A DNA stretch of 64,000 bases from a virus, in IMG/VR virus record IMGVR_UViG_3300024054_000015, positions 1 to 64,000 of that record; one strand, 5' to 3'. Each line of letters starts with the position of its first letter. Positions within the stretch are counted from its first letter, which is position 1. This document shows positions 4,086 to 54,606 of the stretch, piece after piece. The position numbers and the translations under genes were made by a program. The notes under the pieces are model-generated. The model was not told the DNA's origin, searched no databases, and saw nothing but the letters and a program-made list of their open reading frames with translations.

Positions 4086-4181
4086 AAGGGGCCTAGTAGC
4101 CCTTCAGCAACGCGCAAAGCCGCACAAGCACCAATACCTCAGGCGGGCTTGGCGCGTGCTGTAAGGGCTGCTAGGGGCCTT
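4086..4181. repeat. Dispersed 96-97 bp inverted-repeat element, copy 1
   Basis: AAGGGGCCTAG...CTAGGGGCCTT ends; related copies at 19864 and 53289. Confidence 0.75.
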
Positions 4182-4227
4182 AAAACACAGCCCCCCATAA
4201 GTGGTACACGTTCAAAGGAGCAGCAAG

Positions 4228-4713
4228 ATGTCAGACTTGGACTTTAGTGCAATCCAGATCAGAGAGGTTCCCGTTACAGGACCCAACGGTGAAAAGTACG
4301 TCCTGAGAGAAAGCACCGGGAAGGTTACTACTGATCACCGTAATGCCATCATGGCTTCTACACAATTCGGCCCCAACGGCAAGGTCGTGGGCCTCAAGGA
4401 TCTCGCCTCTGTAGAAGCTAAGTTTGTTGCGGGCTGCATGTGGGACTCTAAGGGCAGAAACCCTCCGGTTACTCTCATCCAGTCTTGGCCTGCCAGGGTC
4501 CAGCAAGCCCTGTACGAAAAGGCCAAAGAGCTCAGTGACATGGATGAGGAGTCCCCTGTCAGAAAGGCTCTGGAGTTAGCTCTGAGTAGAGAGGACGCTC
4601 CCATATCGTTTGAGCATCTCTCTGCTTGGGCTAAGGGTCTTGAAGACAGTGATGAACTCAGGCCCCTCATCAGGCTCTTTGCGGATCGGGAGGCAGAACT
4701 AAAAAACTCCTGA
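4228..4713 (+). CDS. Tail assembly chaperone (gpG-like)
   Basis: AAGGAG RBS; lies between tail tube and tape measure genes; ends at a slippery site. Confidence 0.75.
   Translation: MSDLDFSAIQIREVPVTGPNGEKYVLRESTGKVTTDHRNAIMASTQFGPNGKVVGLKDLASVEAKFVAGCMWDSKGRNPPVTLIQSWPARVQQALYEKAKELSDMDEESPVRKALELALSREDAPISFEHLSAWAKGLEDSDELRPLIRLFADREAELKNS
4701..4707 (+). other. Programmed -1 frameshift site A AAA AAC
   Basis: In-frame X XXY YYZ heptamer; -1 frame open from 4701 to 5060. Confidence 0.8.
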
Positions 4714-5060
4714 GGGGTTGCGGTGGTTGGTTCACCGTAGCCCAAGCGTTCGGTCAAGATCCGTTTGAACTCATGGGTAAATGGCCAGAACGATACAGGG
4801 ATTTAGTTCTTGAGTGGCTCGAGGACCAGTGGAATAGGCCCTCCAGGTCTGATTACTACGCCATGCGTATCTCTCAGAGAATCCAGCAGGGTTACTCCAA
4901 GAAGGCTGTTTCGATAGATGATCAGATGATCAAGTTCGCTGAGCCTACAGTCCAGAAGCCTGTGGATCCGGTAGAACGCTCTAAGGCCATCTGGATTGGA
5001 GGAGTTAAGGCTGCTCAACTAGCTGCAAGGGAGAGCCAATGGCCACGGAATACGAAGTAG
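4701..5060 (+). CDS. Tail assembly chaperone frameshift extension (gpT-like)
   Basis: -1 frame reads LLRGCGGWFTVAQAFGQDPFELMGKW... into ORF 4773-5060. Confidence 0.7.
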   Translation, partial: KKLLRGCGGWFTVAQAFGQDPFELMGKWPERYRDLVLEWLEDQWNRPSRSDYYAMRISQRIQQGYSKKAVSIDDQMIKFAEPTVQKPVDPVERSKAIWIGGVKAAQLAARESQWPRNTK

Positions 5061-18526: not shown

Positions 18527-19841
18527 CATTCCCCACAAGCCAGAGGCTTCCCTAGCTTATCCTTATCTGGCTGGGGGTCTACTAGACCTTGGTGTAAGTG
18601 TCAGTATCTATGACGCCTGTGTAGGGAACAGTAAAGATCCTGAGGACGTGTTCTACAACTCTGTGGACCTCCCTAGTGGGCTACGCAGATACGGGGTTTC
18701 AGACGACAGGATCTTAGAGGAGGTTAGCGACAGTGACCTAGTTGGCATCACTTCCATATTCACTGCTCAGGAAACGATGGCCCTGTACGTCGGCAGGCTC
18801 ATCAAGAAACATTTTCCAGACAAGGTCTTGGTTTGTGGCGGCACCAATGCCAGAAGCAGACCTAGGATGTTCATCAAGTCTGGGTTTGACGTGGTCTGTA
18901 TGTCTGAGGCCGACTACAGCATCCAAGCCATCGCCTACGCAGTAGAGAACCACAGGCCGACTAGAAGGTTCTACCGGCAACCACTGATCACCAACCTGGA
19001 CCAGCTTCCCATGCCAGCTTGGGAGCTACACCAGAACGATCGGTACTGGCAGTTAGGAAAGCCTCACGGTTCAGCCCAAGGTGAGGGCTTCAAGTACGCT
19101 CCCATCATGACCTCTAGAGGATGTGTGTTCAGGTGCAGCTATTGCCACATCTCAGGAGAGCAAGGCATCTGCAAGTTTCGTGTCAAGTCCTTGGACAGGG
19201 TTTCCTTAGAGTTGGAGAAGCTTCGCACCCTGGGTGTAGAGAACCTCTTCATTGAGGACGACACGCTATTCGGGAACAAGCCCAGGGGCCTTGACGTCTT
19301 GAGGCTAGTCCAGCAGTTCAGCTTTAAGGTCTGGGACATCAACGGCGTCAACATTGCCCACCTGTTCAAAGGCAGCGAGCCAGACCAAGAAGTCCTGGAC
19401 ACTCTTCAGGCTTGTGGCTTTGCAGCCCTGACCATTCCAGTAGAGTCTGGTAGCCAGAGGATCCTGGACAAGTACGCCTCCAGGAAGTGGCAGGTAGCCA
19501 GATACGACATATCGAAACTCATCAAGGGTCTGAACAGCAGAGGCATCAAGGCAGGCGTGAACTACATGCTGGGCTATCCAGACGAGACCCTAGAGGAGAT
19601 GCAGTCAACCATCGCTCTAGCTCAGAAGCTAAGAGACGCTGGGGCGAACAGTTCAAACTTCATGATCGTTATCCCACTGCCTGGAACTGCCATCTATGAC
19701 ATGGCTATTAGGGAGGGGTATCTGGATCTAGACTTTAACCCAGATACGTTCAACTGGAGGCAAGCCAGCATGAAGAATACAACCGTGCCAGCAAGTCAAA
19801 TAGAGGAGATGCAAGCCGAAGCCTACGCCAAGCTAAACTAG
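18483..19841 (+). CDS. Cobalamin-binding radical SAM protein
   Basis: N-terminal B12-binding domain (LVGITS, VCGG); TSRGCVFRCSYC; ESGS; GYPDET; PLPGT. Confidence 0.9.
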   Translation: MKVTLIYPPQQSRPDIPHKPEASLAYPYLAGGLLDLGVSVSIYDACVGNSKDPEDVFYNSVDLPSGLRRYGVSDDRILEEVSDSDLVGITSIFTAQETMALYVGRLIKKHFPDKVLVCGGTNARSRPRMFIKSGFDVVCMSEADYSIQAIAYAVENHRPTRRFYRQPLITNLDQLPMPAWELHQNDRYWQLGKPHGSAQGEGFKYAPIMTSRGCVFRCSYCHISGEQGICKFRVKSLDRVSLELEKLRTLGVENLFIEDDTLFGNKPRGLDVLRLVQQFSFKVWDINGVNIAHLFKGSEPDQEVLDTLQACGFAALTIPVESGSQRILDKYASRKWQVARYDISKLIKGLNSRGIKAGVNYMLGYPDETLEEMQSTIALAQKLRDAGANSSNFMIVIPLPGTAIYDMAIREGYLDLDFNPDTFNWRQASMKNTTVPASQIEEMQAEAYAKLN

Positions 19842-19863
19842 GCTGTTTGGCGTAATGCCCAAC

Positions 19864-19960
19864 AAGGCCCCTAGCTACCCTGTAGGCGAGCGCAAGCCGT
19901 AACAAGGTGCAGCTAGGCCACTAACTACCAGCGCTCGGCTACGGGCCTGCTAGGGGCTTT
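19864..19960. repeat. Dispersed 96-97 bp inverted-repeat element, copy 2
   Basis: AAGGCCCCTAG...CTAGGGGCTTT ends, 97 bp span. Confidence 0.75.
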
Positions 19961-19986
19961 AATTGGCATACTACCTTTGGGGGTAA

Positions 19987-20046
19987 GGTAGGCAGCGCTC
20001 TCGCTCGGGTCCTGCTCCGCCCGTAGCTTGAGAGCGCTGCCCTACC
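19987..20046. terminator. Long hairpin between convergent transcription arms
   Basis: GGCAGCGCTCTC (19991-20002) pairs with GAGAGCGCTGCC (20030-20041); no U tract. Confidence 0.55.
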
Positions 20047-31041: not shown

Positions 31042-31451
31042 AGCTTTACTCCCAACTTTTCCATTCTGGCCGTTACCTCGGCCATCTCTTCATCACTCAA
31101 GGTTACTCCAGCCTGCTCGCAGGCTTGCAGTGCTGCCAACAGGGCTTGCATTTCATCCAGTTGCCCTCGCAGCTTCTTCGGCCTGTTCTTCTCTGCAATA
31201 AGTTCATTCTGCTTCTCGTTACTCTTATGGTAGCACGCCTGGCATACCGTCGTAACGTTCCAAGTGTCATAACCATTCTGGTTAATCAACAGCCTCGTAG
31301 CTTCCACTTCCTCCGCCTCCTCCACTGTAAGGCAAGGCTTGCAGTGGTAGGGGCAGTTTCGGCATCGTCCTATTCGGTACACTTCAGGTGGCATACTACC
31401 TGCCCTCCCGTCCTTATTTCCAAATGGTAATATTCTAATCATTCGCTCCAC
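31038..31451 (-). CDS. Cys-containing hypothetical protein
   Basis: CRNC..HCKPC...CQAC. Confidence 0.6.
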   Translation of the reverse strand: MERMIRILPFGNKDGRAGSMPPEVYRIGRCRNCPYHCKPCLTVEEAEEVEATRLLINQNGYDTWNVTTVCQACYHKSNEKQNELIAEKNRPKKLRGQLDEMQALLAALQACEQAGVTLSDEEMAEVTARMEKLGVKL

Positions 31452-31518
31452 GCCTTACACTGCCTGCGCTGCCTGCTATACGCTGCGCCACTGTGTAGGC
31501 AAAAACCAATAGGCGCAA

Positions 31519-31550
31519 TAAAGCCCGTATGGCAAGCCATACGGGCTTTA
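31519..31550 (-). terminator. Intrinsic terminator of the island gene
   Basis: Perfect IR TAAAGCCCGTATGGC-AA-GCCATACGGGCTTTA just past the stop; T-rich tail on minus strand. Confidence 0.75.
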
Positions 31551-31566
31551 CGTGCGCTGCGCTGTG

Positions 31567-31920
31567 TTACTTGCCAGCGCTTACCAGCATGTAGTAGGCT
31601 GTGCCACCAACGGTAGTACCGTTGTTGCCAACGTAGCCGCCAGTGGTAACGCTTACCACTTGGCCAGCGCTGGCAAGCTTGCGCAATGTGCCGCGCAGTG
31701 GTGCCCATACAAGCTTGCCATTGCTGCGCTTGCGCGGCTTAAAGCCGCAAGCTTGCGCTACTTGGCGCAGTGTGTAGGGCTTACCTGCCTGCAAGCTTGC
31801 AAGTACTGCGCTGCCTTGCGGCGCTGCCTGCGCTGTGCTGGCAAGCGCTGCCTGCAATGCTGCAAGCGCTGCCTGTTGGGGGCTGGTGGTGGTGCTGGTG
31901 GTGGTGCTGGTGGTTGCCAT
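31567..31920 (-). CDS. Basic winged-helix-like DNA-binding protein with no Asp/Glu (117 aa)
   Basis: VLASLQAGKPYTLRQVAQACG...LRGTLRKLASAGQV..wing; TTAGGGG RBS; own promoter and terminator. Confidence 0.7.
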   Translation of the reverse strand: MATTSTTTSTTTSPQQAALAALQAALASTAQAAPQGSAVLASLQAGKPYTLRQVAQACGFKPRKRSNGKLVWAPLRGTLRKLASAGQVVSVTTGGYVGNNGTTVGGTAYYMLVSAGK

Positions 31921-31997
31921 GTGCGTTACCCCTAAGCTGGTGGTGCAGTACCGTTGCTGCCACATTGGCAGCAACCGGCGTAACAGTGGCAACAACC

Positions 31998-32013
31998 GCA
32001 AGCGCTGTGCCAA
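31998..32013 (-). promoter_or_regulatory. Sigma54 (RpoN) -24/-12 promoter
   Basis: Minus strand TTGGCACAGCGCTTGC about 80 nt upstream of the ATG at 31920. Confidence 0.7.
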
Positions 32014-32147
32014 TGGCGCGCAAAATGGCTACAAGTGGCAGCGCGCGCGCACATATATGTTGTGTGCGCGCGCCGCCCCTGCCGGTCATTCACCATACAG
32101 ACTCATAGAAAGTTTGGATAACATGGAAATACGACTATTGGAAATAT

Positions 32148-33790: not shown

Positions 33791-33834
33791 TTGGAACCTC
33801 CTTTAGTTGCTGGCTGTTGTTCCAAGTATGCCTA

Positions 33835-33863
33835 ATTATACACAACTATTTATGTTTTAACAA
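33835..33863 (-). promoter_or_regulatory. Sigma70-type promoter (leftward)
   Basis: TTGTTA-17-TATAAT on minus strand. Confidence 0.7.
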
Positions 33864-34030
33864 TAACCCCTTTGGGTGGGGCTAACAAGCAGTTCGGATC
33901 TACTTTGGATCTTCTTTAACTCTTACTCTAATAATATAATAATAAAATAATAAGAATACTGACCCATTGTAAGTATAGTGGAGAATGCCGCAAGTGCAAG
34001 GCCCGAGGCCGCGAATGGTGTGCGGCTCCC

Positions 34031-34065: not shown

Positions 34066-34638
34066 GTGGCACCTTACCCTTCTCTTCAGAAAGTTGCGGC
34101 GATGCGGGAAGAATTCGAAAGGATGATTGAGTTAGGCAAATGCGGGTACAAGCTCGCAGTCCTCAAGATTGTTAGACCAGACACCGATCCCGAGTACACC
34201 TACCAGTTAAGGCTGGATGGGCTGCGCTATGGGCAGTTCGGCATTGTGCAGGAGGATGAGATCTTCTACGTGGTCCACGTGGGCTCGGGCAGAGTTTGCG
34301 GTGAGTTCACAGTTATTGAGACTGCTGAGCGTGAGGTTTTTCTTCTCAGAAAATTGACCGACTGGAGGAAGGTTGGCTGGAGTGACAATGAGAAGTTTCT
34401 AAAGAGTCCTTTCCGCTTCATCTGTGCTGAAGCTGCGGAGTATTGTGTAGGTCTGGACAAGCCATTTGACAGACTCGCCAAGGCTGTGAAGGCCGCTCTC
34501 CCTAAGACTAAGGAAGAGATCGTGGAAGAGTTTGCATTTGAGCTACAGTCCACTCCATTCGGGGATGATGAGGAATTTGTACCTCCCAAGCGGTCTGAAG
34601 CCAAGAAAGACGATGGCTGGGGGCATACTATTACATAG
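34066..34638 (+). CDS. Hypothetical protein
   Basis: 190 aa; start may be the ATG at 34102. Confidence 0.65.
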   Translation: MAPYPSLQKVAAMREEFERMIELGKCGYKLAVLKIVRPDTDPEYTYQLRLDGLRYGQFGIVQEDEIFYVVHVGSGRVCGEFTVIETAEREVFLLRKLTDWRKVGWSDNEKFLKSPFRFICAEAAEYCVGLDKPFDRLAKAVKAALPKTKEEIVEEFAFELQSTPFGDDEEFVPPKRSEAKKDDGWGHTIT

Positions 34639-34686
34639 TGGCGGCGGCGGGCTTGCCTTATTACTGTTTGTGGTTACTATACTAAT

Positions 34687-34902
34687 ATGGCACATAAATA
34701 CAGCAATTATCGTGGTCGTCCAAGGAAGTATCCATGGAAGACCTGGTTCAAAAACTCTGTGACCCATTTGGTTCGTGGTAAGGACTACCAGTGTGAACCT
34801 TATAGTCTGGCTATACAGATACGCAGGATGTCTAACATCCTGGACATTCCAGTTACGGTCTCCGTACATGCAGAGCGGGTGACCATTACGAGGTTGAAAT
34901 GA
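34687..34902 (+). CDS. Small basic DNA-binding-like protein
   Basis: RGRPRKYPW (AT-hook-like). Confidence 0.6.
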   Translation: MAHKYSNYRGRPRKYPWKTWFKNSVTHLVRGKDYQCEPYSLAIQIRRMSNILDIPVTVSVHAERVTITRLK

Positions 34903-42325: not shown

Positions 42326-42487
42326 GTGTCGGGTGTGCGACGGCTATGGGGTTCTGTATCGCACCGTCGTGCAGAGAGACGGTGAAGAATACGAGGTAGC
42401 CGATGAGTGTCCAGCGTGCGGCGGGCATGGGTGGACCGTAGAACTTGTCAAAGGTGGTGTTGTTTCTGTTTAGTTTCTGTAAGGAGA

Positions 42488-45970: not shown

Positions 45971-46356
45971 AGGCTAAGTGTGTAGCTATCTTAGATACTA
46001 TGTGGGGAGGATCTGGCAAGGCTCCAGGTATGTTTAGGATAAACCCTAAGAACCACACAGGCCGGAGGCTGTACTGGTTCCTCGGCCACAAGGATCTATG
46101 GGTTACGAATGCCTGCACAGAGTACGTCGCCAATGCCAAGCTGCACGGGAGGCCAGACCCTAAGAGGTTGGCAACTAACCTCCAGAGAGTCACCTGTGAC
46201 CTATTGCTGGTCTGTGGTTCGGTGGCTGCTAAAGCCTTTAGGAAGTGTGGCTACAAACCGAAGTGTAGGGTCATATACATTCCGCATCCAGCTTGGCGTG
46301 GTTGGACAATGGAGCACTTGGAAGAAGTGAGAAGGAGAATACAAGATGAAGATTGA
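45967..46356 (+). CDS. Divergent UDG-superfamily-like protein
   Basis: WVTNAC, LLVCGSVA, IPHPAWR. Confidence 0.55.
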   Translation: MKAKCVAILDTMWGGSGKAPGMFRINPKNHTGRRLYWFLGHKDLWVTNACTEYVANAKLHGRPDPKRLATNLQRVTCDLLLVCGSVAAKAFRKCGYKPKCRVIYIPHPAWRGWTMEHLEEVRRRIQDED

Positions 46357-47224
46357 AGATGTTAGGAAGCTAAGCCCAGAAGGGAGGTTTCTGTATTGGG
46401 TTGGGGAAAGATGGAATATCCTTAGCAAGAGAAGGAGTGGCTATGTAAGGCCCTGGACGAATGACAAGATCTTACAGTCCTACTACTTTACCAATGTGAA
46501 GCGTAAGGATGACAAGGTCACCATCTGGGTTACTGAGAACATTATTGGACCAATGCAATGGGATCCACTGGTCATCTTTGCAGTCCTAGCCTTTCGGTGG
46601 TTCAACCAACCCCAACCTTCTGGAGAGTATCTAGTAAGTCATGATCTTCTAAAGCTGTGGAACTGCGAGTTGGCAGTGAAGGGACTTACAGGGTTCAAGA
46701 ACGCGGGCTTGAAAGTGTTCACTGGAGCCTTTAACATTTCCAATGGAGGTAGTAGCAAGCCTAAAGTCAACCGCGTCTGCGAGGACTACATCCAGCCAGT
46801 ATGGGAGTGTCGAGAGAACTTACTGAACCGTATATTAGAGCCCAAGGAGCGTACCCTCGCAAGAGCCTTTGAGGTAATCTCCGAGTATCCAGGTATGGGT
46901 GGCAGTGGCTTCATGGCTGCTCAGGTTGTCTGTGATCTAGCCTACACACACTTTCTAGAGGATGCTAAGGACTTTGAAACATGGTGTTCCTGGGGTCCGG
47001 GAAGTAGACGTGGTATGAATAGAGTGTGTGGCTTTGATGAAAACTTTCCAATGCCAGCAGGGGATTGGAATGTTAGACTTCAACGCTTGCGTGGGGTCAT
47101 CAGTAGGAAGCTTGGCCTAAACCTCCATGCCCGCGATGTTCAGAACTGTCTATGTGAGTTCTCGAAATACGAAAGGGCTTTGTGGAATCAAGGTCACTTA
47201 AAGAGGAGGTACAAGGGTGCCTAG
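46346..47224 (+). CDS. 5-hmdU DNA kinase-like protein (aGPT-Pplase1 family)
   Basis: PWTNDKILQSYYFTNVKRKDD, FRWFN, GPGSRRG, QNCLCEFSKY. Confidence 0.85.
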   Translation: MKIEDVRKLSPEGRFLYWVGERWNILSKRRSGYVRPWTNDKILQSYYFTNVKRKDDKVTIWVTENIIGPMQWDPLVIFAVLAFRWFNQPQPSGEYLVSHDLLKLWNCELAVKGLTGFKNAGLKVFTGAFNISNGGSSKPKVNRVCEDYIQPVWECRENLLNRILEPKERTLARAFEVISEYPGMGGSGFMAAQVVCDLAYTHFLEDAKDFETWCSWGPGSRRGMNRVCGFDENFPMPAGDWNVRLQRLRGVISRKLGLNLHARDVQNCLCEFSKYERALWNQGHLKRRYKGA

Positions 47225-48134
47225 AATACAGGAGCAGTTGATTGTCTATGTCCCCACTAGGGGAAGAGCTCGCAAGCAGACAACCCTCAAGCAGTTTGAC
47301 CTCTATAAAAGGCCAGACGTGTTTGTAGTGGTTCCAGAGTGTGAACGCAGGTTGTGGACTAGGGATGTGCTGGTAGTTCCAGACGACTACAAGTTTTCTG
47401 ACATTCGGCAGTTCATCCTTAACTGTCCTGGGAAGTACCATCTGGTGTTGGATGACGACCTAAGACCCGCGGTCAGAAGGATCGACGATCCAACTAAGTT
47501 CACCAACCTAGAGGTTATGGACAGGGCTTCTAGGGCAGACCATATTGACCAACTGTTTGATACGATACTGTCGTTACTCCAAGAGGGATGGGTGCATGGA
47601 GGCATTGCGGCTCGGCAAGGGGCCAACAACGACACCAATCAGTATCAGTTCTGTAGTCGGGTGGTAAGAGCCCACTTCTACAACGCAGAGATTGTGAAGA
47701 GTCTAGGACACGACTTTCGGCAGTTCGTTATTAAGCAGGACTATGACTTCATCCTGTCCATGCTGTGTAAGGGGATCCCTAACATAGTGATAAACGAATA
47801 TGTCCAGGATCAGGTTGGCAGTAACACTTCAGGAGGTTGCTCCAGGTATAGGACAAGCTCGGTGCTAGAGGAAGGAGCTAATCTACTACACCAGAAGTAT
47901 CCAGACTTCGTAAAGGTGGTGCATAAGCACCCCAAGACTTCCTGGGGAGGAAAGCCTAGAGTGGATGTAGTGATCCAGTGGAAGAAAGCCTATAAGGAGG
48001 GGTTAGAGTATGCCCGTCATTTACAGAGAAAGAATCCGGCCTCCATGGACAATAAAGATAGAGCAATCGCGCGGTTGCAACCTCTCATGCAAGTTCTGTC
48101 CAATAAACTACTTGAAGGAAATCAACCAAAGTAG
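47217..48134 (+). CDS. TAGT/GREB1/JGT-like DNA glycosyltransferase
   Basis: VPTRGR, RQFIL, VLDDD, QDYDF, GGCSRYRT, QWKKAY. Confidence 0.75.
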   Translation: MPRIQEQLIVYVPTRGRARKQTTLKQFDLYKRPDVFVVVPECERRLWTRDVLVVPDDYKFSDIRQFILNCPGKYHLVLDDDLRPAVRRIDDPTKFTNLEVMDRASRADHIDQLFDTILSLLQEGWVHGGIAARQGANNDTNQYQFCSRVVRAHFYNAEIVKSLGHDFRQFVIKQDYDFILSMLCKGIPNIVINEYVQDQVGSNTSGGCSRYRTSSVLEEGANLLHQKYPDFVKVVHKHPKTSWGGKPRVDVVIQWKKAYKEGLEYARHLQRKNPASMDNKDRAIARLQPLMQVLSNKLLEGNQPK

Positions 48135-48906
48135 GAAGTTCCTAAGCCCCTCAATGTGTAGGATTATTACTCGGCAGGCAGTGGAGCTAAAGCCCAACCT
48201 GAGAGTGGAACTGACCCTTAGAGGGGAGCCTACTCTAAACCCGCACATTCTGGAGAACCTCTCCATTATTAGAGAGGAGGCGCCTGAGTTCCAGATAAGT
48301 CTGTTCACCAATGGGGTGAAGACCTTTGGTGATCCGTCCCTGATCGTAGCGTTGCTGGATGCAGGTGTGAACATCCTGTGCATCGATTGCTACAACAATA
48401 CCTACCAGAGATTTCTCGAAGCTGCCAAGAGAACCAAGGAGCAGGTCGTGGACTTCAGGGAGTTCTCTGCCTACAAGAGATACAGGAACGGTCATAGGCT
48501 ACGGGTTATCAACCTAGTACCCGACATCCAGGAGGGATCTGTAGACGTCAGGAAGATCCACAATAACGCTGGAAACGTGGACCCCGAGTACCTGTCTAAA
48601 CTTGAGGGCTACGTTAAGCAAGCCCTACCATTGGCCCGAGGATGCTCTAGACCATTCACTGAGGTTGTGGTCTACTACAATGGGGATGTTCCAATCTGCT
48701 GTAGTGATTGGAAGGCTGAGTATGTCCTAGGTAATGTTATGGACCAAGACCTATCGGACATCTGGTATGGTAAGAGACACTACGAAGCCTTGGTGAAGCT
48801 TCACATGTCTAGGGCAGATAGAAGTCTACCTCCATGTGCCAAGTGTGACTACCACGGTGGGTATCGTCTTGGACTTCTGCAAGATCCAATAAAAAACCCC
48901 CGCTGA
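48010..48906 (+). CDS. Radical SAM/SPASM protein
   Basis: CNLSCKFC, GEPTL, CSRPF..GDVPICC.DW..LGN..CAKC. Confidence 0.9.
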   Translation: MPVIYRERIRPPWTIKIEQSRGCNLSCKFCPINYLKEINQSRKFLSPSMCRIITRQAVELKPNLRVELTLRGEPTLNPHILENLSIIREEAPEFQISLFTNGVKTFGDPSLIVALLDAGVNILCIDCYNNTYQRFLEAAKRTKEQVVDFREFSAYKRYRNGHRLRVINLVPDIQEGSVDVRKIHNNAGNVDPEYLSKLEGYVKQALPLARGCSRPFTEVVVYYNGDVPICCSDWKAEYVLGNVMDQDLSDIWYGKRHYEALVKLHMSRADRSLPPCAKCDYHGGYRLGLLQDPIKNPR

Positions 48907-48929
48907 ACACCGTTCAACGAGGGTTGTTT
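48892..48929. terminator. Bidirectional terminator candidate
   Basis: A-run, imperfect hairpin and T-rich tail between convergent genes. Confidence 0.5.
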
Positions 48930-48950
48930 GTGTTGATCGTAGTTGCCGTG

Positions 48951-49271
48951 TTAGCTCTTTGATTCCTTCAGGGCTTTTTCCAGGGCTTTTCGACCAACGG
49001 GTGTAATCTTGAATCTCTTGCCACGCTTGCCTTCCTCGGCCACCAGTTCCTGTAGATATCCTTTCTCCACAAGCTCGGGCAGTCGGCGTCCCTTGTCGAT
49101 CCCGGTCGAGGAACTGATCTCAGCGGCAGTCAACACGCTACCACTCTTCAGCGAGTCCAACACCTTCATCATGTTGGGAGTAAGATCCTTTGGCTCCCGA
49201 GGGGTTTGCTCCTTCTTCTCCTCCTTGGCGACCTTTCCCTTCTTCACTGGAAGTTCTGCTGTCTTGGGCAT
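48951..49271 (-). CDS. Winged-helix protein (paralog of the C-terminus of ORF 28809)
   Basis: LTPNMMKVL...TAAEISSSTGI...GKRFKITPVGRK; AAGGAG RBS. Confidence 0.75.
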   Translation of the reverse strand: MPKTAELPVKKGKVAKEEKKEQTPREPKDLTPNMMKVLDSLKSGSVLTAAEISSSTGIDKGRRLPELVEKGYLQELVAEEGKRGKRFKITPVGRKALEKALKESKS

Positions 49272-49317
49272 CAAATGCTCCTTTAGAAATGTAACCAACA
49301 AAACACCACTACCTTGC

Positions 49318-49345
49318 ATTGTAGGGTATAATGAAGTATTGGCAA
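49318..49345 (-). promoter_or_regulatory. Sigma70-type promoter
   Basis: TTGCCA-16-TACAAT on minus strand; overlapping plus-strand TATAAT at 49327. Confidence 0.55.
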
Positions 49346-49411
49346 GTCCTAGCTGAAAAATTTGTTCAAATAGTTGCAACTCGTGTTCCCACTCTCACTT
49401 AGGAGCAGACA

Positions 49412-50458
49412 ATGCACCTGTCTTACATGAATGTGAACGCCGCTTTCAACGACTTGGTGTGCAAGTTCCACTACAGTGAAATCCCCATAACTGTAGCCCC
49501 TAGTAGGAATGGGGACGTGATCATGGCGACCCAGCCCATGACCATCACCTACCTGAACCCCAAGCAAAGAGTCTTGTTTAACGAGGCTCGGGATTGCAAC
49601 CCATTCTTTCATCTGTTTGAGTCCTTGTGGATACTGGCTGGCAGGGATGACGTCGCTCCTCTGAAGTATTTTGTGTCTACGATTAATGAGTTCTCTGACA
49701 CAGGTTTCACGTTCAATGGTGCCTATGGTCAGAGATTGAGGTACTTCCATAGGATTGATCAGATTAAAGAGGCCATTGCCCAACTGAAGCACAACCCAAA
49801 CTCTAGAAGGGTAGTGCTACAGATGTGGACTCTCTCAGACATGATGAAAGCTGACAACAGACATGGAACCATGTCCAAGGACGTTCCATGCAACACACAT
49901 GCCTACGTCTCTATCAACCCACTTGGCCTAGAACTAACTGTCTGTAACCGAAGCAACGACATGATCTGGGGAATGCTGGGAGCCAATGTCGTACACTTCT
50001 CTTTCCTTCAGGAATACTTGGCGGCTTGTATAGGAGTTCCGGTCAACGTCTACAATCAGTTCACTAACAACCTACACGTTTACCGAAGCAACTGGAAGCC
50101 AGATGAATGGTTGAGTGACCGGACCGAGGATCTGTATAGTATGCCACGCGTCTTGAGAGCAGTGCCCTTAGTAAAAGACGTAGAGAGGTTCAACTACGAG
50201 TGTGCAGAGTTCATAGACCTAAAGGAGGATGGAGTCTATCAGGAACCATTTCTTAACGACGTAGCTGTCTGGGCTTGCTTGGGGTACAGACACCATAAGA
50301 ACCGGGAGTACCCTCGAGCTCTGGAAGCTGTGTCCAGGATAGAGTCTGATGATTGGAGAGTTGCTTGTCGTAGGTGGTTGGAACGAAGGTCAGTAGCTTG
50401 GAGGAAGAAGAATGGAGATGTCGAAAGAGCCGAGAGTTGTGATAACGCTGAGGCTTAG
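49412..50458 (+). CDS. Thymidylate synthase homolog, probably dUMP hydroxymethylase
   Basis: GAYGQR, SRRVV, DVPCN, RSNDMIWG..GAN (Asn indicates uracil specificity), NLHVY. Confidence 0.85.
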   Translation: MHLSYMNVNAAFNDLVCKFHYSEIPITVAPSRNGDVIMATQPMTITYLNPKQRVLFNEARDCNPFFHLFESLWILAGRDDVAPLKYFVSTINEFSDTGFTFNGAYGQRLRYFHRIDQIKEAIAQLKHNPNSRRVVLQMWTLSDMMKADNRHGTMSKDVPCNTHAYVSINPLGLELTVCNRSNDMIWGMLGANVVHFSFLQEYLAACIGVPVNVYNQFTNNLHVYRSNWKPDEWLSDRTEDLYSMPRVLRAVPLVKDVERFNYECAEFIDLKEDGVYQEPFLNDVAVWACLGYRHHKNREYPRALEAVSRIESDDWRVACRRWLERRSVAWRKKNGDVERAESCDNAEA

Positions 50459-50690
50459 TAAGCTCGAGAGGGACAAGTTGATTGACAAGGCTAACAAGAT
50501 GGGCATTAGCCTGAACGAGTACCTGAGGTTTAGATTAGGATTCCCCCTAAATGAAAAGAGTACCAAGATCATCAGCGCTCCAAACCCCTATCTCATCAAC
50601 GAACTTTCCAGATCTATCGCTACCGAACTTGCCAGACAGGAGGCCAGTCCTAACAAAGCAGGACTTTGCCCGCCGGTATCGTTCGGGTGA
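50412..50690 (+). CDS. Ribbon-helix-helix protein
   Basis: ITLRLS...KANKMGISLNEYLR. Confidence 0.65.
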   Translation: MEMSKEPRVVITLRLSKLERDKLIDKANKMGISLNEYLRFRLGFPLNEKSTKIISAPNPYLINELSRSIATELARQEASPNKAGLCPPVSFG

Positions 50691-51174
50691 GTTCGGCAAT
50701 GCCGCCCCTACGTGGGATTGCAGTATCGAGCTACTCCGTTCTGGCTATCTAGATCCAGTACATCTACGCTGTAGGGAGTCTAGTGGAGCAACCTTCTACA
50801 ACCTGGAGCCTTCAGAAGCTCTACGCATGTGGAAGGCAATGCCCTTCCCAGAGATGTACTACTGCTCGGCAATGGCTCCACATGGTAGGGGAACCATCCA
50901 AGGCGAAGTACAGCAAACAGAAAGGGGTTTGTCACTGTTGGCCTTTAGTGCCGACATAACTATGCGGGATGCTATGGCAAGGCGTGGTGTGGAGCTACAT
51001 GGCATCCTTGCCGTCCACTTACTGAAGATGAACATGTGTCCTAAGAGCTATGACTGGCTTCAGTTCCTACTGGAGGCCTATCCACTTCATGTTGTGGAGT
51101 TCACTTGCTTTGATTGTAATTGGGGTACGTTACCTGGATTCAACACCGTCTTTTGGGAGGTCCGCCTGTATTAG
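50551..51174 (+). CDS. Hypothetical protein
   Basis: 207 aa; GEFGN...HVVEF...WEVRLY. Confidence 0.6.
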   Translation: MKRVPRSSALQTPISSTNFPDLSLPNLPDRRPVLTKQDFARRYRSGEFGNAAPTWDCSIELLRSGYLDPVHLRCRESSGATFYNLEPSEALRMWKAMPFPEMYYCSAMAPHGRGTIQGEVQQTERGLSLLAFSADITMRDAMARRGVELHGILAVHLLKMNMCPKSYDWLQFLLEAYPLHVVEFTCFDCNWGTLPGFNTVFWEVRLY

Positions 51175-51183
51175 GAGTTCTAA

Positions 51184-51729
51184 ATGCCGTTTACACAGAA
51201 AATTTTAGACAGATTCTGGTCCAAGGTAGATAAGAAAGGTCCTATCCATACAGCCTATGGGAAATGTTGGACCTGGAGTAGTGCAATTAACAATAAAGGA
51301 TACGGTGTGTTTAGCCTACGTAGAGGTAGAAATTCCTACTCTCACAGGCTATCTTGGAGGATTCATTATGGTAAGATTCCGGACGGGATGTGTGTACTTC
51401 ACAAGTGCGACAACCCAAGATGTGTAAATCCAAGCCATTTATTTCTTGGATCTCACAAGGACAACACGCAGGACATGATTAGAAAGGGAAGGAGAGGATA
51501 CACTGGAGTATCTGGAGACTCAAATCCTTCCAGGACTCATCCAGAGTGTTTAGCTAGAGGCTCTAGTCATGGAATGGCAAAGCTATCAGAAGGTCAAGTT
51601 TTAGAAATTCTTAAACTTAGAAAGGTTGGGTATACGCAGGCCAGATTAGGAAAGATGTTTGGTGTTAGCAGGGAGCAGATTAAGAATATTGTCAACAATA
51701 AGCAGTGGAGACATGTCGTATGTCAATGA
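51184..51729 (+). CDS. HNH endonuclease
   Basis: RFWSKVDK, CWTW, VLHKCDNPRCVNPSHL; related to ORF 34899. Confidence 0.9.
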   Translation: MPFTQKILDRFWSKVDKKGPIHTAYGKCWTWSSAINNKGYGVFSLRRGRNSYSHRLSWRIHYGKIPDGMCVLHKCDNPRCVNPSHLFLGSHKDNTQDMIRKGRRGYTGVSGDSNPSRTHPECLARGSSHGMAKLSEGQVLEILKLRKVGYTQARLGKMFGVSREQIKNIVNNKQWRHVVCQ

Positions 51730-52337
51730 CTCTAAAAGAGTATCAACAGTTAGCTCTACGAACGGAATGTGATCAAAATCGCAGTCTTAACAACATTGTT
51801 CATCATCAGCCTCCACTTATTACTGTTAGGGCGCTACACAGTGTGATTGGAATGTCTGGAGAAGTAGGTGAATTATCTGGGTCCATAGAGAAATGGATCT
51901 ACTATGGACAACCCTTGGATGTTTTGAATATCAAAGAGGAGATAGGAGACCTACTATGGTATGTGAATCAGTTATGCAGCGTGTTACATCTGGACCTAGG
52001 ACAGATCATGGAGGCCAACATTGCCAAGCTGAGACAACGCTATCCCCAGAAGTTCGAGGAAGTCTTAGCCAAGGAAGAGAACCGCGACCGTGCTGCTGAG
52101 GCGGAGTGTGTAGCCTGTAGCACAGGTGGAAACATGAACTGTTCGGAGGAAGTCACGGAGAGTGGATCCGACTTCATCAAGCATCAAATGCTGAATAAGC
52201 CTAGGACTGCTCTCTGCCCTCATTGTGGTGGGCATCTGAATAGACAGGCTTGTAACAGGGCTGCTGAGGGTGGTAGGTCCGTAGCGTGCCCAGACTGCTT
52301 GAAATCGTTTTCCGTTAAGGAGATCAGATACGCATGA
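51726..52337 (+). CDS. MazG-like nucleotide pyrophosphohydrolase with C-terminal Zn ribbon
   Basis: GEVGEL...KEEIGDLLWY...NIAKLRQRYP. Confidence 0.85.
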   Translation: MTLKEYQQLALRTECDQNRSLNNIVHHQPPLITVRALHSVIGMSGEVGELSGSIEKWIYYGQPLDVLNIKEEIGDLLWYVNQLCSVLHLDLGQIMEANIAKLRQRYPQKFEEVLAKEENRDRAAEAECVACSTGGNMNCSEEVTESGSDFIKHQMLNKPRTALCPHCGGHLNRQACNRAAEGGRSVACPDCLKSFSVKEIRYA

Positions 52338-53227
52338 CAGAGGATCTGCCAGCAAAGATAAGACCTTTTGTGTTTCATGGACTGACTTTATCAAAGAGAA
52401 ACAACGAGTACGTAGGAGCCTGCCCCTTTTGTGATAAGGAGAAGTTCTCGGTCAACTGTATCACAGGACTCTGGAAGTGTTGGTACTGCGCCACTGGTAG
52501 CGAGAAGGCCGGAGGCAACATTAGCACTTTCATCCAGAAGTTTCATGGGATGTGCATGGAAGCCACTAAGCCCAGCGAGTATTCCAAACTAGCTGAGGAC
52601 CGTAGCTTTGTGGATGGCATGGCTGTAGTGGAATGGCAGTTGGCTCTATCAACCACTACGGGCGATTGGCTAGTCCCAGGGTACAACCATCAGCGAACGC
52701 TGTGTTCCCTGTATCGCTACATCCACCAGAGAGATGGTGGCTATAGGCTGATCCCTACTCCCACACTAGGTCATCACATTCATGGGATGAACTTATGGGT
52801 CAAGAGCAAGCCTGTAGTCTACATCTGTGAAGGGCCTTGGGATGCCATCGCCTTATGGGAATGCTTGATTGCTGCTAAGAACTCTTCCAATGGTCTAGCT
52901 CTCACTGCCAGCAGAGAGTCTAGCCTAGCTTCTCAAGCTAACGTGATAGCTGTTCCTGGATGTGAGGTATTCTACGAGCCGTGGCTATCTCTGTTCGAGG
53001 GCAAGATCGTTAACCTGATGTACGATAGCGATCATCCTCGTAAGCATCCGAATACAGGACACATCACAGAGGGTGCTGGCTACAGAGCCATGAAGAGGAT
53101 CACGGAGTTGTTCTCTAAGTCTAAACATCAACCAGAGGAGTTGAATTACTTATGTTGGGGTCCAGAGGGTTACGATCCCAAGAGAAAGTCTGGGTTCGAC
53201 GTTAGGGACTTCATCGTTAGGGGATAG
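52334..53227 (+). CDS. DNA primase (Zn finger plus TOPRIM)
   Basis: CPFC...CWYC; ICEGPWDAIA; YDSD; DVRD. Confidence 0.8.
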   Translation: MTEDLPAKIRPFVFHGLTLSKRNNEYVGACPFCDKEKFSVNCITGLWKCWYCATGSEKAGGNISTFIQKFHGMCMEATKPSEYSKLAEDRSFVDGMAVVEWQLALSTTTGDWLVPGYNHQRTLCSLYRYIHQRDGGYRLIPTPTLGHHIHGMNLWVKSKPVVYICEGPWDAIALWECLIAAKNSSNGLALTASRESSLASQANVIAVPGCEVFYEPWLSLFEGKIVNLMYDSDHPRKHPNTGHITEGAGYRAMKRITELFSKSKHQPEELNYLCWGPEGYDPKRKSGFDVRDFIVRG

Positions 53228-53229
53228 AT

Positions 53230-54606
53230 ATGCCGAGATTGCCAGCACTTGAAGAGCCCTTACAGCCTGCCACCCAAACAAGCCCAGCAAGGCCCCTACA
53301 AGCCCGTTTAACGCATTTGCGGGCTTTATTGGGGTTGGTGCAGCCTGTACCGCGCGCGTGGCTTGTAGGGGCTGCTAGGGGCCTTAAAAGCCATGCCACT
53401 AGTTCGGGGGGTGAAGAAACTACCATTAGACTTAAATCCTGCGAGTCGTATCAAGATCTCGTGAAGGCTTGGCGTAAGGCCCTCAAGTGGTCTCCAGGTC
53501 TTGATAACACGTTAGCAGTGATGTTAGCCTCGAGCTTCTCTACACAGTTCGTTGGAGAGCAGTTGTGGCTTAAAGTCATCGGGCCTCCTAGTTGTGGAAA
53601 GACAACCCTAATGGAAGGGTTAGCCACTGCTAGGAAGTGGTATTTGAGTAAAGATACCATACGAGGCTTTCATAGTGGTTGGAAGCGTGAGGACAATGCA
53701 GACGTATCGTTAGCCGATATGGTCAAGGGAATGACATTAGGGACTAAGGATGGCGATACACTCCTCAAGGCTCCCAACCTCAAACAGATACTAGCCGAGG
53801 CTCGAGCTCTCTACGATCGTGTATCCAGAACCAACTACCGCAACGATACCAATCGTGAGTACCAAGGTCATCGCATGACTTGGCACCTAGCAGGCACTAA
53901 CGCTCTTAGGGAGATCGACGACTCAGAGCTTGGTGTAAGGTTTCTGGACGTAGTGGTAATGGATAAGATTGATGACGAGTTCGAGTACGAGGTCTGCTGG
54001 AGGGCTGTCAACCAAGAGATGATCAACATGCGTCATCTCTCTGACGGAAAACCCGAAACGCAGTATCCTGAGGATTTGGCTAATGCAATGGCCCTTTCTG
54101 GAGGATATCTCGACTTCCTCAGGACTAATGCTGTGGAGCTAGCTCGTAGTCTAGAGTTGTCTGATGAAAGCGTCGTTAATCGCTGTATTCAGCTAGGGAT
54201 CTTCACAGCCTTTATGCGTGCTAGATCTGGTGCTAACTCCGAGGAAGCTACTCGTGAGTTTGGCCCTAGACTAACGACACAGTTAGGGCGATTGGCTACA
54301 GGATTAGCCTGTGTCTTCAACAAGCCTAGAGTTGATGATGAGGTCATGCACAAGACTTGGCAAGTCGCTATGCACACATCCAGAGGGCCTACGTTAGAGC
54401 TCGTGAAGGTTCTACACAAGATCCCTCAAGGGATAGAAGTGCGTGGTTTAGCAGCCCTAATGCGTGCTAATGATGACAAGCTGCGCGCGCAGTTAAGATT
54501 CTTGCGAGCTATTGGTGTAGTGGAAACTGATGTGAACTTTAAGCGTTGGCGTATAACTCCCAAGCTATCCAAGCTCTATGAGGCTGTCAATGCCCAGAGA
54601 TCCTAA
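53230..54606 (+). CDS. Replicative helicase-like AAA+ ATPase
   Basis: GPPSCGKTT; follows primase; C-terminal wHTH-like region. Confidence 0.7.
   Translation: MPRLPALEEPLQPATQTSPARPLQARLTHLRALLGLVQPVPRAWLVGAARGLKSHATSSGGEETTIRLKSCESYQDLVKAWRKALKWSPGLDNTLAVMLASSFSTQFVGEQLWLKVIGPPSCGKTTLMEGLATARKWYLSKDTIRGFHSGWKREDNADVSLADMVKGMTLGTKDGDTLLKAPNLKQILAEARALYDRVSRTNYRNDTNREYQGHRMTWHLAGTNALREIDDSELGVRFLDVVVMDKIDDEFEYEVCWRAVNQEMINMRHLSDGKPETQYPEDLANAMALSGGYLDFLRTNAVELARSLELSDESVVNRCIQLGIFTAFMRARSGANSEEATREFGPRLTTQLGRLATGLACVFNKPRVDDEVMHKTWQVAMHTSRGPTLELVKVLHKIPQGIEVRGLAALMRANDDKLRAQLRFLRAIGVVETDVNFKRWRITPKLSKLYEAVNAQRS
53289..53385. repeat. Dispersed 96-97 bp inverted-repeat element, copy 3
   Basis: AAGGCCCCTAC...CTAGGGGCCTT, 97 bp; lies inside a 150-nt GA/TC-free stretch. 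Confidence 0.75.

What the first reader, a model, noticed from the sequence alone, without database searches (positions are those of the whole stretch)
4086..53385. Three dispersed elements with 11-bp inverted ends at a fixed 96-97 bp span
Seen: copies at 4086-4181, 19864-19960 and 53289-53385 start with an AAGGCCCCTAG-like box and end with CTGCTAGGGGC(C/T)TTAA. Interiors diverge but length is constant, GC clusters recur roughly every 10 bp, and GA/TC is almost absent (2, 2 and 0 occurrences). Inference: protein-wrapped DNA sites kept unmodified. The symmetric periodic arms recall strong gyrase sites such as Mu SGS or pSC101 par. Packaging or genome-organising sites, or long RNA hairpins, are alternatives.
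Basis: partly seen in the sequence, partly recalled or inferred. Interest (0 to 1): 0.7.

Follow-up and report, generated by a model that had tools for sequence, protein, structure and literature searches.

The report
Twin-box phage DNA sites, modification-free
An uncultured 80-kb lake phage carries three copies of a roughly 97-bp DNA element whose two ends are mirror-image copies of a box also found in many unrelated phages, and each copy sits in a roughly 175-bp stretch lacking the GA/TC step, probably so that a protein can bind DNA free of the phage's bulky thymine modification.

Summary
The window is bases 1-64000 of an 80,045-bp virus record. The 16-mer CTGCTAGGGGCYTTAA occurs three times in it, all on the + strand, each 96-97 bp downstream of an inverted AAGGCCCCTAG-like box.

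The box is part of a 25-35-nt motif found in dozens of unrelated viral contigs, four MAG contigs and cultured Gordonia and Mycobacterium phages. It is not a host repeat. Where two inverted boxes occur, the span is almost always 96-99 bp.

A syntenic relative has elements at the orthologous sites with unrelated interiors. Copy 3 lies inside conserved helicase coding sequence, so it is not an insertion.

The interiors are not consistently self-complementary, and box deviations are not compensated. In this clade alone, GA and TC are missing from the element and from 30-45 bp of non-palindromic flank on both sides. That is a strand-symmetric, DNA-level constraint.

The phage encodes a thymidine-hypermodification cluster. 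Its other GA/TC-free islands are in regulatory regions.

Best reading, at about 45% confidence, is a dyad protein-docking DNA site kept free of TC-context hypermodification. The binding protein and the function are unknown. Gyrase is untested and unlikely. RNA hairpin and selfish palindrome readings remain open. Other first-stage notes of this scan had already flagged these elements and the GA/TC ban.

The parts
4086..4183 (.). Twin-box element c1. The left box AAGGGGCCTAG is degenerate; the right box CTGCTAGGGGCCTTAA is exact. It is intergenic, between ORF 3607-4071 and ORF 4201/4229-4713, upstream of the tape-measure gene.
   Evidence: The orthologous element e2 in G001 lies between the orthologous genes.
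4073..4218 (.). GA/TC-free zone around c1 (at most 2 GA+TC per 98 nt).
19864..19962 (.). Twin-box element c2, at the convergent junction. It follows the last gene of the rightward late operon (B12-radical SAM, 18483-19841) and faces the CsrA-like gene 20053-20268(-) and the ligase gene 20384-21304(-).
   Evidence: Orthologous elements occur in G001 (e1) and L048.
19809..20001 (.). GA/TC-free zone around c2.
53289..53387 (.). Twin-box element c3, embedded in coding sequence. It covers residues 20-53 of the helicase ORF 53230-54606, which is the primase-helicase linker in fused homologues.
53238..53416 (.). GA/TC-free zone around c3. It includes a 150-nt gap, 53254-53404, with no GA or TC at all.
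46346..52337 (+). Thymidine-hypermodification gene cluster, the inferred reason for the GA/TC ban. Genes: 5-hmdU DNA kinase 46346-47224, TAGT-like 47217-48134, radical SAM/SPASM 48010-48906, thymidylate-synthase homologue 49412-50458, MazG 51705-52337.
31440..32100 (.). Largest GA/TC-free island, not a twin-box element: 639 nt without GA or TC. It is rich in palindromes, has four CAAGCTTGC sites, and holds a small basic protein gene at 31570-31920(-). It shows that the ban marks regulatory or early DNA.
33795..33897 (.). GA/TC-free island in the divergent intergenic region between the leftward and rightward operons.
34606..34719 (.). GA/TC-free island in the intergenic region after ORF 34066-34638.

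Best explanation
Each element is a dyad-symmetric protein-docking site in double-stranded DNA.

**Architecture.** It has two inverted copies of a box, held 96-99 bp apart. The core is AAGGCCCCTAGCAG, extended inward to about 25-35 bp. Each arm carries two CCCC(N)TAG-like half-sites 10-11 bp apart.

**Proposed mechanism (inferred).** A sequence-specific DNA-binding protein, not identified, occupies both arms. It bends or wraps the variable 40-50 bp between them and forms a complex covering about 175 bp.

**The GA/TC ban.** This phage clade replaces thymine with 5-hmdU and then hypermodifies it in a sequence context. I infer that context to be 5'-TC-3'. The whole footprint is written without the TC/GA step, so every thymine in it stays plain and the site stays readable. 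The same holds for the phage's presumed early promoter and regulatory regions.

**What is shown.** The architecture, the fixed spacing, the distribution, the conservation at orthologous sites, the embedding in a gene, the strand-symmetric GA/TC ban and the presence of modification genes.

**What is inferred.** Protein binding, wrapping, TC as the modification context, and the biological role. The role is most likely a boundary or organising site at junctions of gene modules, possibly origin-like.
For: 1. **A specific, widespread box.** Scanning viral contigs with the 16-mer gave 28 loci. Nearly all share further conserved bases upstream (CTAYRGGGSC) and downstream (A), which a chance 16-mer match would not.
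2. **Fixed spacing.** Ten of 13 two-box hits span 95-97 bp between AGG and CCT, including five unrelated phages at 96-97 bp. The allowed range was 75-105.
3. **Sequence is selected, not pairing.** In the box stem there are 0 compensated changes against 5 broken pairs. Interiors without the boxes have z-scores from +1.2 to -4.7 and are clearly negative in only about 4 of 12. Many phages carry a single box.
4. **DNA-level, strand-symmetric constraint.** GA and TC are both absent from non-palindromic flanks 30-45 bp on each side. The chance of no GA/TC in 30 nt is about 0.01. G001's only four islands are its four elements. Control dinucleotide pairs AG/CT and CA/TG give 0 islands in G000 and G001.
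5. **The ban is clade-specific.** Elements of unrelated phages have normal GA/TC content. Those phages showed no homologue of the modification genes by BLAST.
6. **Modification genes are present**. The literature says hypermodification is sequence-specific (PMC8989533, PMC5889632) and that phage thymine dioxygenases prefer NTC or NTG (PMC13229309). Relatives show TC-free or TG-free islands, enriched where thymidylate-synthase or kinase homologues are nearby.
7. **Functional retention.** Elements sit at orthologous positions in G000, G001 and L048 although the interiors have turned over.
8. **Copy 3 evolved in place.** It lies in a conserved linker-coding segment. The rare codon string AGG CCC CTA is kept in 4 of 6 lineages, against genome codon frequencies of 0.22, 0.22 and 0.14.
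9. **Helical phasing.** Strong/weak-base periodicity of 9.5-11 bp is seen in 10 of 12 elements.
Against: - No binding protein was found. No protein family is shared by all box-bearing genomes by BLAST, and no gene associates clearly with the box among 80 related loci.
- The same box occurs in phages of very different G+C content (40-57%) and apparently of different host phyla. A host factor or a single phage factor is hard to reconcile with that.
- Some members (c1, G001 e1, L052, L012, L043) are very good long hairpins at -55 to -69 kcal/mol.
- In several phages the box sits next to terminator-like hairpins. That also fits an RNA-level role.
- TC as the modification context is an inference from avoidance, not a measurement.
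- Centre-to-centre spacing of about 87 bp is 8.3 turns of relaxed B-DNA, not an integer.
Confidence: 0.45

Rival explanations
1. The element acts at the RNA level. Once transcribed, the two boxes form a conserved 12-bp G+C-rich basal stem enclosing about 70 nt. The structure would act as a transcript boundary: a terminator or attenuator, a 3'-end stabiliser, or an RNase III-type processing site.
For: - All three copies lie in rightward-transcribed regions at gene junctions.
- Whole elements fold at -49 to -57 kcal/mol with z-scores of -2.4 to -5.
- c2 ends the late operon.
- c1 follows ORF 3607-4071, the gene just upstream of the presumed tail chaperone and tape-measure genes (its own function was not determined: no PHROG or Pfam match).
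- In the L007 family, G014 and Gordonia phage Sephiroth, the box abuts a hairpin with a T run.
- Three shorter two-box hits (76-77 bp) look like ordinary U-tract terminators with the same stem.
Against: - There is no U tract after the G000 elements.
- Box deviations are not compensated: 0 compensated against 5 broken pairs.
- Interiors are not consistently structured.
- Single boxes are common.
- Orientation relative to genes varies, and neither strand is consistently the more stable.
- GA and TC are both missing from the unpaired flanks, which an RNA constraint on one strand does not predict.
- No Rfam family matches.
Confidence: 0.2
2. The element is a selfish miniature palindrome, like a REPIN or MITE. 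Its 25-35-bp inverted ends would be recognised by a transposase or nuclease supplied in trans. That would account for its spread among unrelated phages and mobile elements.
For: - Distribution is sporadic, with near-identical ends in unrelated genomes.
- G001 has an extra element (e3) at a site that is empty in G000.
- Two G001 elements share a 30-nt apical module absent from their G000 orthologues.
- At the c2 site the flanking cargo genes differ between relatives.
Against: - Copy 3 was not inserted. Homologues without boxes align through it without gaps.
- Elements are kept at orthologous sites while flanking proteins have diverged to 40-73% identity.
- No target-site duplication is visible; the flanks continue the palindrome instead.
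- Copies within a genome do not share interiors.
- Copy number is 1-4 per genome.
- No Y1 transposase in 11 records, and resolvase or integrase in only 2 of 16 each.
- It is not a host repeat: 2 of 301 genomes of the order carry the exact 14-mer, fewer than the reversed control.
Confidence: 0.17
3. The element is a replication origin or helicase/primase loading site. The boxes would be iteron-like sites for an initiator. The analogy is with the lambda origin inside the linker-coding part of gene O, and with island origins just downstream of their rep genes.
For: - c3 and single boxes in at least six related lineages lie in the primase-helicase linker.
- In two Planctomycetota MAG elements the box lies 380-450 nt downstream of Prim-Pol or AAA_25 genes.
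- In G021 the box is at the 5' end of a Dda-like helicase gene.
- c2-type elements and L025 are next to ligase genes.
- Each arm has two helically phased half-sites.
Against: - There is no A+T-rich unwinding segment in or beside the elements.
- The replication proteins next to the box are of unrelated families, yet the box is the same.
- c1 and G001 e3 lie in structural gene modules.
- G000 has a separate, more origin-like palindrome-rich region at 31440-32100.
Confidence: 0.1
4. The element is a strong DNA gyrase or topoisomerase site, or a terminase recognition site.
For: - About 175 bp is constrained, with dyad symmetry and 10-11-bp strong/weak-base phasing.
- In Gordonia Octobienvirus phages the box lies 47-75 nt from the left physical genome end, and a box-like sequence lies 59 nt from the right end.
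- In L020 a box lies 1.3 kb upstream of the large terminase gene.
Against: - For gyrase: the conserved part is a specific sequence at the ends, not the centre.
- For terminase: there are three or four copies per genome in the G000 clade, none adjacent to the terminase genes 56219-56896 and 58420-60021.
- No small terminase subunit is shared among carriers.
- In Mycobacterium phage Onyinye the box is mid-genome.
Confidence: 0.08

Closest known systems
BIME / REPIN elements (inverted doublets of REP sequences in bacterial chromosomes)
   Same: Two conserved units of about 25-35 bp in inverted orientation at a characteristic spacing. The total is about 100 bp with a variable linker. They are intergenic, often at 3' ends of genes and convergent junctions, and singletons also occur. 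They are reported to bind proteins such as gyrase and IHF and to fold as hairpins (my own knowledge).
   Different: The box is not itself a palindrome. There are 1-4 copies per phage genome rather than hundreds per chromosome. It was not found as a repeat in the searched host-order genomes. No RAYT-type Y1 transposase is present in carriers. One copy lies in frame inside a conserved gene.
Origin iterons inside a replication gene (lambda ori in the linker-coding part of gene O; SPP1 oriL in gene 38 plus a distant oriR)
   Same: Helically phased repeated protein-binding sites spanning about 100 bp, embedded in the linker-coding part of a replication gene. SPP1 has a second copy elsewhere in the genome (my own knowledge).
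   Different: There is no adjacent A+T-rich segment, and no cognate initiator was identified. The same box occurs in phages with unrelated replication proteins.
Dispersed centromere-like inverted repeats of the linear plasmid-prophage N15, and the P1 parS arms around an IHF bend
   Same: Several dyad-symmetric protein-binding sites dispersed over a phage genome. Two arms are read together across a bent spacer whose length matters (my own knowledge).
   Different: No ParA or ParB homologue was looked for or seen here. G000 shows no integrase or plasmid-maintenance genes.
Bacteriophage Mu strong gyrase site / pSC101 par
   Same: A footprint of about 130-175 bp, dyad character and 10-bp phased flexibility.
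   Different: Those sites have no strongly conserved terminal box shared across unrelated genomes. Here the centre is the variable part. Gyrase action was not testable.
Context-specific thymidine hypermodification (phages M6, ViI, phiW-14, SP10; NTC/NTG-preferring phage thymine dioxygenases)
   Same: G000 has the kinase, a thymidylate-synthase homologue, MazG and radical SAM genes. Published enzymes act in dinucleotide contexts NTC or NTG (PMC13229309). Modification is described as sequence-specific with motifs unknown (PMC5889632, PMC8989533).
   Different: I found no description in the papers read of islands written without the target dinucleotide around cis-elements.

Membership tests
REP/BIME/REPIN | Each unit is itself a short imperfect palindrome with a conserved 5' GTAG | tested here: not met
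   The box AAGGCCCCTAGCAGSCCCGTAG is C-rich on one strand and not self-complementary.
REP/BIME/REPIN | Inverted doublets at a characteristic spacing | tested here: met
   Spans of 96-99 bp in G000, G001 and five unrelated phages.
REP/BIME/REPIN | High copy number in the bacterial chromosome | tested here: not met
   One exact 14-mer in each of four MAGs. Two of 301 genomes of the same order carry it, below the reversed-pattern control. Six hits in 185,579 species genomes with the 17-mer.
REP/BIME/REPIN | A cognate RAYT (Y1 transposase) gene | tested here: not met
   PF01797 was absent from 11 box-bearing virus records, while the control genomes rang. Host genomes were not tested.
MITE | Terminal inverted repeats | tested here: met
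MITE | Target-site duplication flanking the element | tested here: not met
   The flanks extend the palindrome (CCGTTTAAGG...CCTTAAACGG) rather than forming direct repeats.
MITE | Copies are insertions, so empty sites exist and host sequence is interrupted | tested here: inconclusive
   G001 e3 has no counterpart in G000. Copy 3, however, is colinear with box-less homologues.
Intrinsic terminator / RNase III-type hairpin | A stable stem maintained by compensatory change | tested here: not met
   In the box stem, 0 compensated changes against 5 broken pairs. Interior z-scores run from +1.2 to -4.7.
Intrinsic terminator / RNase III-type hairpin | A U tract after the stem (terminator) | tested here: not met
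   The stem is followed by TTAAAA or TTTAATT in G000. The 76-77-bp class does have T runs.
Intrinsic terminator / RNase III-type hairpin | Transcript ends or cleavage at the site | not testable with these tools
   No RNA run holds the sequence.
Strong gyrase site | Gyrase cleavage at the centre of an approximately 130-bp wrapped site | not testable with these tools
   It needs quinolone-induced cleavage mapping.
Strong gyrase site | Phased flexibility in the arms | tested here: met
   Strong/weak-base periodicity of 9.5-11 bp with p < 0.05 in 10 of 12 elements.
Iteron-type origin | Repeated, helically phased binding sites | tested here: met
   Two CCCC(N)TAG units 10-11 nt apart per arm.
Iteron-type origin | An adjacent A+T-rich unwinding element | tested here: not met
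   Interiors and flanks are not A+T-rich.
Iteron-type origin | A cognate initiator protein | tested here: inconclusive
   No protein is shared by all carriers. Distant homology was not excluded.
cos/pac terminase site | Adjacent to the terminase genes or the physical genome end, one per genome | tested here: not met
   G000 has three copies, and none is next to the small subunit gene 56219-56896 or the large subunit gene 58420-60021. The feature is met only in Gordonia Octobienvirus.
Invertible switch / site-specific recombination site | A recombinase encoded in the genome, and both orientations present in the population | tested here: not met
   Resolvase in 2 of 16 and integrase in 2 of 16 carriers, neither in G000. 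No strand-changing joints in the contigs of four runs. Contigs drop rare variants.

The most novel reading that the evidence does not exclude
The twin-box is a previously undescribed cis-element that crosses host phyla. It occurs in apparent Planctomycetota phages and mobile elements, and in Gordonia and Mycobacterium phages. It would dock a still unknown machinery. In thymidine-hypermodifying phages, its roughly 175-bp footprint and the early regulatory DNA are deliberately written without the target dinucleotide (TC here, TG in some relatives). If so, the modification code of an uncultured phage can be read directly from its genome sequence, and phages keep 'readable windows' in otherwise armoured DNA.
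Probability: 0.3. Interest if true: 0.8.

Novelty: new variant of a known kind. Interest (0 to 1): 0.66.

Why it matters
Three things would follow if this reading holds.

1. **A new conserved non-coding element.** It defines a conserved DNA element of phages that is absent from Rfam and from the searched literature. The element also occurs in cultured, genetically tractable phages: the Gordonia phages Sephiroth and Octobien14 and Mycobacterium phage Onyinye. Its function can therefore be tested at the bench.

2. **A sequence-only route to modification context.** Islands that lack one thymine-containing dinucleotide point to the context of thymidine hypermodification. The 2018 paper read here calls those motifs unknown.

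3. **A design principle.** A phage that armours its DNA against nucleases must leave windows of plain DNA where proteins have to read sequence. Those windows would also be the places where such DNA stays vulnerable to sequence-reading host defences.

Tried and rejected
**Sequence and family searches**
- Near-identity search of the first 20 kb against cultured phages: no match.
- Rfam at gathering and permissive thresholds: only generic long-hairpin (miRNA-precursor) noise at the elements.
- Literature search for the motif as text: only chance hits. A search on the names of the cultured carrier phages found nothing relevant.

**Candidate readings tested**
- T7-like RNA polymerase promoter: PF00940 was not found in G000, but the control rang nowhere, so this is uninformative. 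A promoter reading is rejected because about half of the boxes have no same-strand gene downstream and orientation varies.
- CRISPR-repeat mimic, tRNA 3' end or attP core: rejected. The bacterial scan gave only single matches inside mobile-element-like contexts. Two viral hits in real tRNA genes look like chance.
- Dif/Xer and sigma-54 likenesses: examined by eye and rejected.

**Searches for a partner protein**
- Shared proteins by BLAST and gene-box association in 80 loci: nothing convincing.
- HNH_3 endonuclease is present in only 5 of 19 carriers.
- The small basic protein in the 31447-32086 island has only four homologues and none in viral contigs.
- The G000 small terminase candidate 57917-58423 and the large subunit have no cultured-phage homologues by tblastn.

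**Other**
- A single-protein locus search with the helicase found nothing.
- Consensus folding of 12 members recovers only the invariant box stem.
- Sequencing runs: no RNA holder is listed. Seven lake-water DNA runs hold the stretch as contigs. Contigs bridge c1 and c2, there are no joints, and there is one 1-nt deletion variant at 4085.

Full report
**What the window is**

The window is bases 1-64000 of an 80,045-bp virus record that CheckV rates complete. It holds tail, head, terminase and replication genes. One protein carries a Planctomycete-type extracellular signal motif. The DNA is found in lake-water metagenomes.

**Checking the observation**

- The 16-mer CTGCTAGGGGCYTTAA occurs three times in the whole genome, always on the + strand.
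- Each copy lies 96-97 bp downstream of an inverted, less exact AAGGCCCCTAG-like box.
- Interiors do not align.
- GA+TC counts are 2, 2 and 0 against 13.8 expected.
- Strong/weak-base periodicity near 10-11 bp is real, but the conserved arms carry much of it. Periodicity of the GC dinucleotide as such is significant only in copy 3.

**The box is a widespread motif**

A scan of 2.9 million viral contigs with the 16-mer returned 28 loci.

- Almost all share more sequence than was asked for. The consensus is roughly AATCGCTCTACGGGSCTGCTAGGGGCCTTAAAC, that is two CTA(N)GGGGC units 10-11 nt apart followed by TTAAA.
- Two hits lie in true tRNA genes, and one other sequence (two near-identical loci) lacks the extended motif; these look like chance.
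- A scan for two inverted 10-mers with 55-85 nt between them gave 13 hits. Ten span 95-97 bp, including five unrelated phages at 96-97. Three span 76-77 bp and look like ordinary terminators with T runs.
- The 17-mer occurs only six times in one genome each of 185,579 prokaryote species. Four of these carry the extended motif. Three are in Planctomycetota MAGs. Two of those three, the ones whose flanking genes were annotated, lie beside Prim-Pol or AAA_25 genes, one of them also next to an excisionase-like and an integrase gene.
- The box is single-copy in those MAGs. The exact 14-mer is in 2 of 301 genomes of the same order, below the reversed-pattern control. It is therefore not a host repeat.
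- It also occurs in cultured phages. In Gordonia Octobienvirus phages it lies 47-75 nt from the left genome end, beside a terminator-like hairpin. In Mycobacterium phage Onyinye and relatives it lies in a 555-nt divergent intergenic region.
- Carriers have 1-4 boxes per genome.

**Evolution in the close relatives**

G001 is a 59-kb syntenic relative. It has elements at the sites orthologous to c1 and c2, a degenerate one at the c3 site, and a fourth with no counterpart in G000.

- Flanking proteins are 40-73% identical and interiors are unrelated, yet the boxes are kept. L048 carries the c2-type element as well.
- Copy 3 is not intergenic. It encodes residues 20-53 of the helicase. This segment aligns without gaps to homologues down to 43% identity, and in many homologues it is the linker of a fused primase-helicase.
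- A single box at the same codons is found in at least five further lineages, within GA/TC-free islands.
- Arg-Pro-Leu is spelled AGG CCC CTA in 4 of 6 lineages. The genome frequencies of these codons are 0.22, 0.22 and 0.14.
- In another lineage the nucleotides are kept while the peptide changes to Gly-Gly-Leu.

This is selection on nucleotides inside a gene. It excludes a simple insertion for this copy.

**Hairpin or two sites?**

Whole elements fold well, but that is largely the box stem.

- With the boxes removed, interiors fold better than shuffles clearly in c1 and G001 e1, modestly in c2 and L052, and not at all in c3, e2, e3, L049 and L055.
- Deviations in one box are not compensated in the other: 0 compensated, 5 broken, 3 one-sided.
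- Neither strand is consistently the more stable.
- Many phages have a single box.

The universal features are the box sequence and the fixed distance between two inverted boxes, not a long helix.

**The GA/TC ban**

Windows of 98 nt with at most 2 GA+TC (genome mean 13.8) form six islands in G000.

- Three surround the three elements. The others are a 639-nt palindrome-rich region at 31447-32086, the divergent intergenic region at 33795-33897, and the intergenic region at 34606-34719.
- In G001 the only four islands are its four elements.
- The ban extends 30-45 bp into non-palindromic flanks on both sides, coding flanks included, and both GA and TC are missing there.
- Control dinucleotide pairs AG/CT and CA/TG give no islands in G000 or G001.
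- Elements of unrelated phages are not depleted.

Because the ban is strand-symmetric and reaches beyond the palindrome, it is a constraint on duplex DNA over about 175 bp.

**Why GA/TC?**

G000 encodes the following:

- a 5-hmdU DNA kinase (PF18723, E = 1e-38);
- a TAGT-like protein;
- two radical SAM proteins;
- a thymidylate-synthase homologue;
- MazG.

The papers read state that such phages convert 5-hmdU to a hypermodified base or to thymine in sequence-specific contexts whose motifs were unknown (PMC5889632, PMC8989533). They also state that phage thymine dioxygenases prefer NTC or NTG (PMC13229309).

Among 80 loci of helicase relatives, some have GA/TC-free islands and others CA/TG-free islands. 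One relative is depleted of CA/TG throughout, and G021 is depleted of GA/TC throughout. Such islands are more frequent where thymidylate-synthase or kinase homologues are nearby.

I infer that TC is the modification context in this clade, and that the islands are kept free of the bulky base. This is an inference from avoidance, not a measurement.

**What does the element do?**

I could not identify the partner.

- No protein is shared by all carriers.
- Y1 transposases, recombinases and HNH_3 endonucleases are absent from most carriers.
- The small basic protein encoded in the 639-nt island has only four homologues.
- Boxes do not sit at a fixed distance or orientation from gene starts.
- Positions are junctions of gene modules: between ORF 3607-4071 and the genes preceding the tape-measure gene, the convergent end of the late operon, the primase-helicase junction, divergent regions, and genome ends.
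- There is an excess of neighbours in replication and nucleic-acid metabolism.

My best reading, at about 45% confidence, is a dyad protein-docking DNA site that forms a complex of about 175 bp. The rivals are an RNA boundary hairpin (20%), a selfish palindrome (17%), an origin-like site (10%), and a gyrase or terminase site (8%).

**Novelty**

No Rfam family and no paper in the library matches the motif. The closest known architectures are BIME/REPIN doublets and iteron or centromere-type dyad sites, and the defining features of each fail in part (see the membership table). The link between a cis-element and a dinucleotide-free island in a hypermodifying phage appears not to have been described in what I read. 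Other first-stage notes of this scan had independently flagged the GA/TC ban and the modification cluster in this genome.

Noticed in passing
window 20053-20268 (-): A 71-aa CsrA homologue (PF02599, E = 2e-23) is encoded right beside element c2. A hairpin at 19991-20041 lies between them.
   Followed up: partly
window 31440-32100: This region has 639 nt without a single GA or TC. It contains a perfect 15-bp inverted repeat (31519-31550), four CAAGCTTGC palindromes, a G+C-rich palindrome with an ATATAT centre near 32040-32075, and a 117-aa basic protein gene (31570-31920, -) with no Asp or Glu. That protein has only four homologues in the large protein collection.
   Followed up: partly
window 46346-52337 and 18483-19841: A thymidine-hypermodification cluster: 5-hmdU DNA kinase, TAGT-like protein, radical SAM/SPASM, thymidylate-synthase homologue, HNH_3 endonuclease and MazG. 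A separate B12-binding radical SAM gene lies at the end of the late operon and has no tblastn match in the relative G001.
   Followed up: partly
window 30800-30865 (-): A type II hammerhead ribozyme match above Rfam's gathering score (39.4 bits).
   Followed up: no
window 42944-43029 (+): A tRNA match of 86 nt at 41.8 bits, long for a tRNA.
   Followed up: no
window 52334-53227 and 53230-54606: Primase and helicase are separate ORFs here, with a stop codon, two bases and then ATG, in different frames. In many homologues of about 740 aa they are one fused protein.
   Followed up: partly
window 40829-42325 (+): A protein with a Planctomycete extracellular signal motif and a PPC domain, hinting at a Planctomycetota host.
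   Followed up: no
L094, L115, L111, L088 (helicase relatives): These relatives have islands free of CA/TG instead of GA/TC, or genome-wide depletion of it. In L115 the islands are non-coding, including about 2.5 kb at 16113-18691. G021 is depleted of GA/TC genome-wide (8.6 per 98 nt).
   Followed up: partly
L142 (G014) about 39506-42478 (-): A single box lies just upstream of a 990-aa gene that matches PHROG 4291 (annotated RNA-dependent RNA polymerase, E = 1e-259). This is probably a YonO-like phage RNA polymerase. A terminator-like hairpin sits between the box and the gene.
   Followed up: no
L165 (Gordonia phage Sephiroth, last 200 nt): The right genome end carries an array of C-rich AAGCCCC / CAAGGCCCC repeats. 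It ends in a box-like AAGGCCCCTAAGGG 59 nt from the end.
   Followed up: no
window 34899-35363 and 51184-51729: Two paralogous HNH_3 (I-HmuI-like) endonuclease genes. Homologues lie within 1 kb of the c2-type element in G001 and L048.
   Followed up: partly
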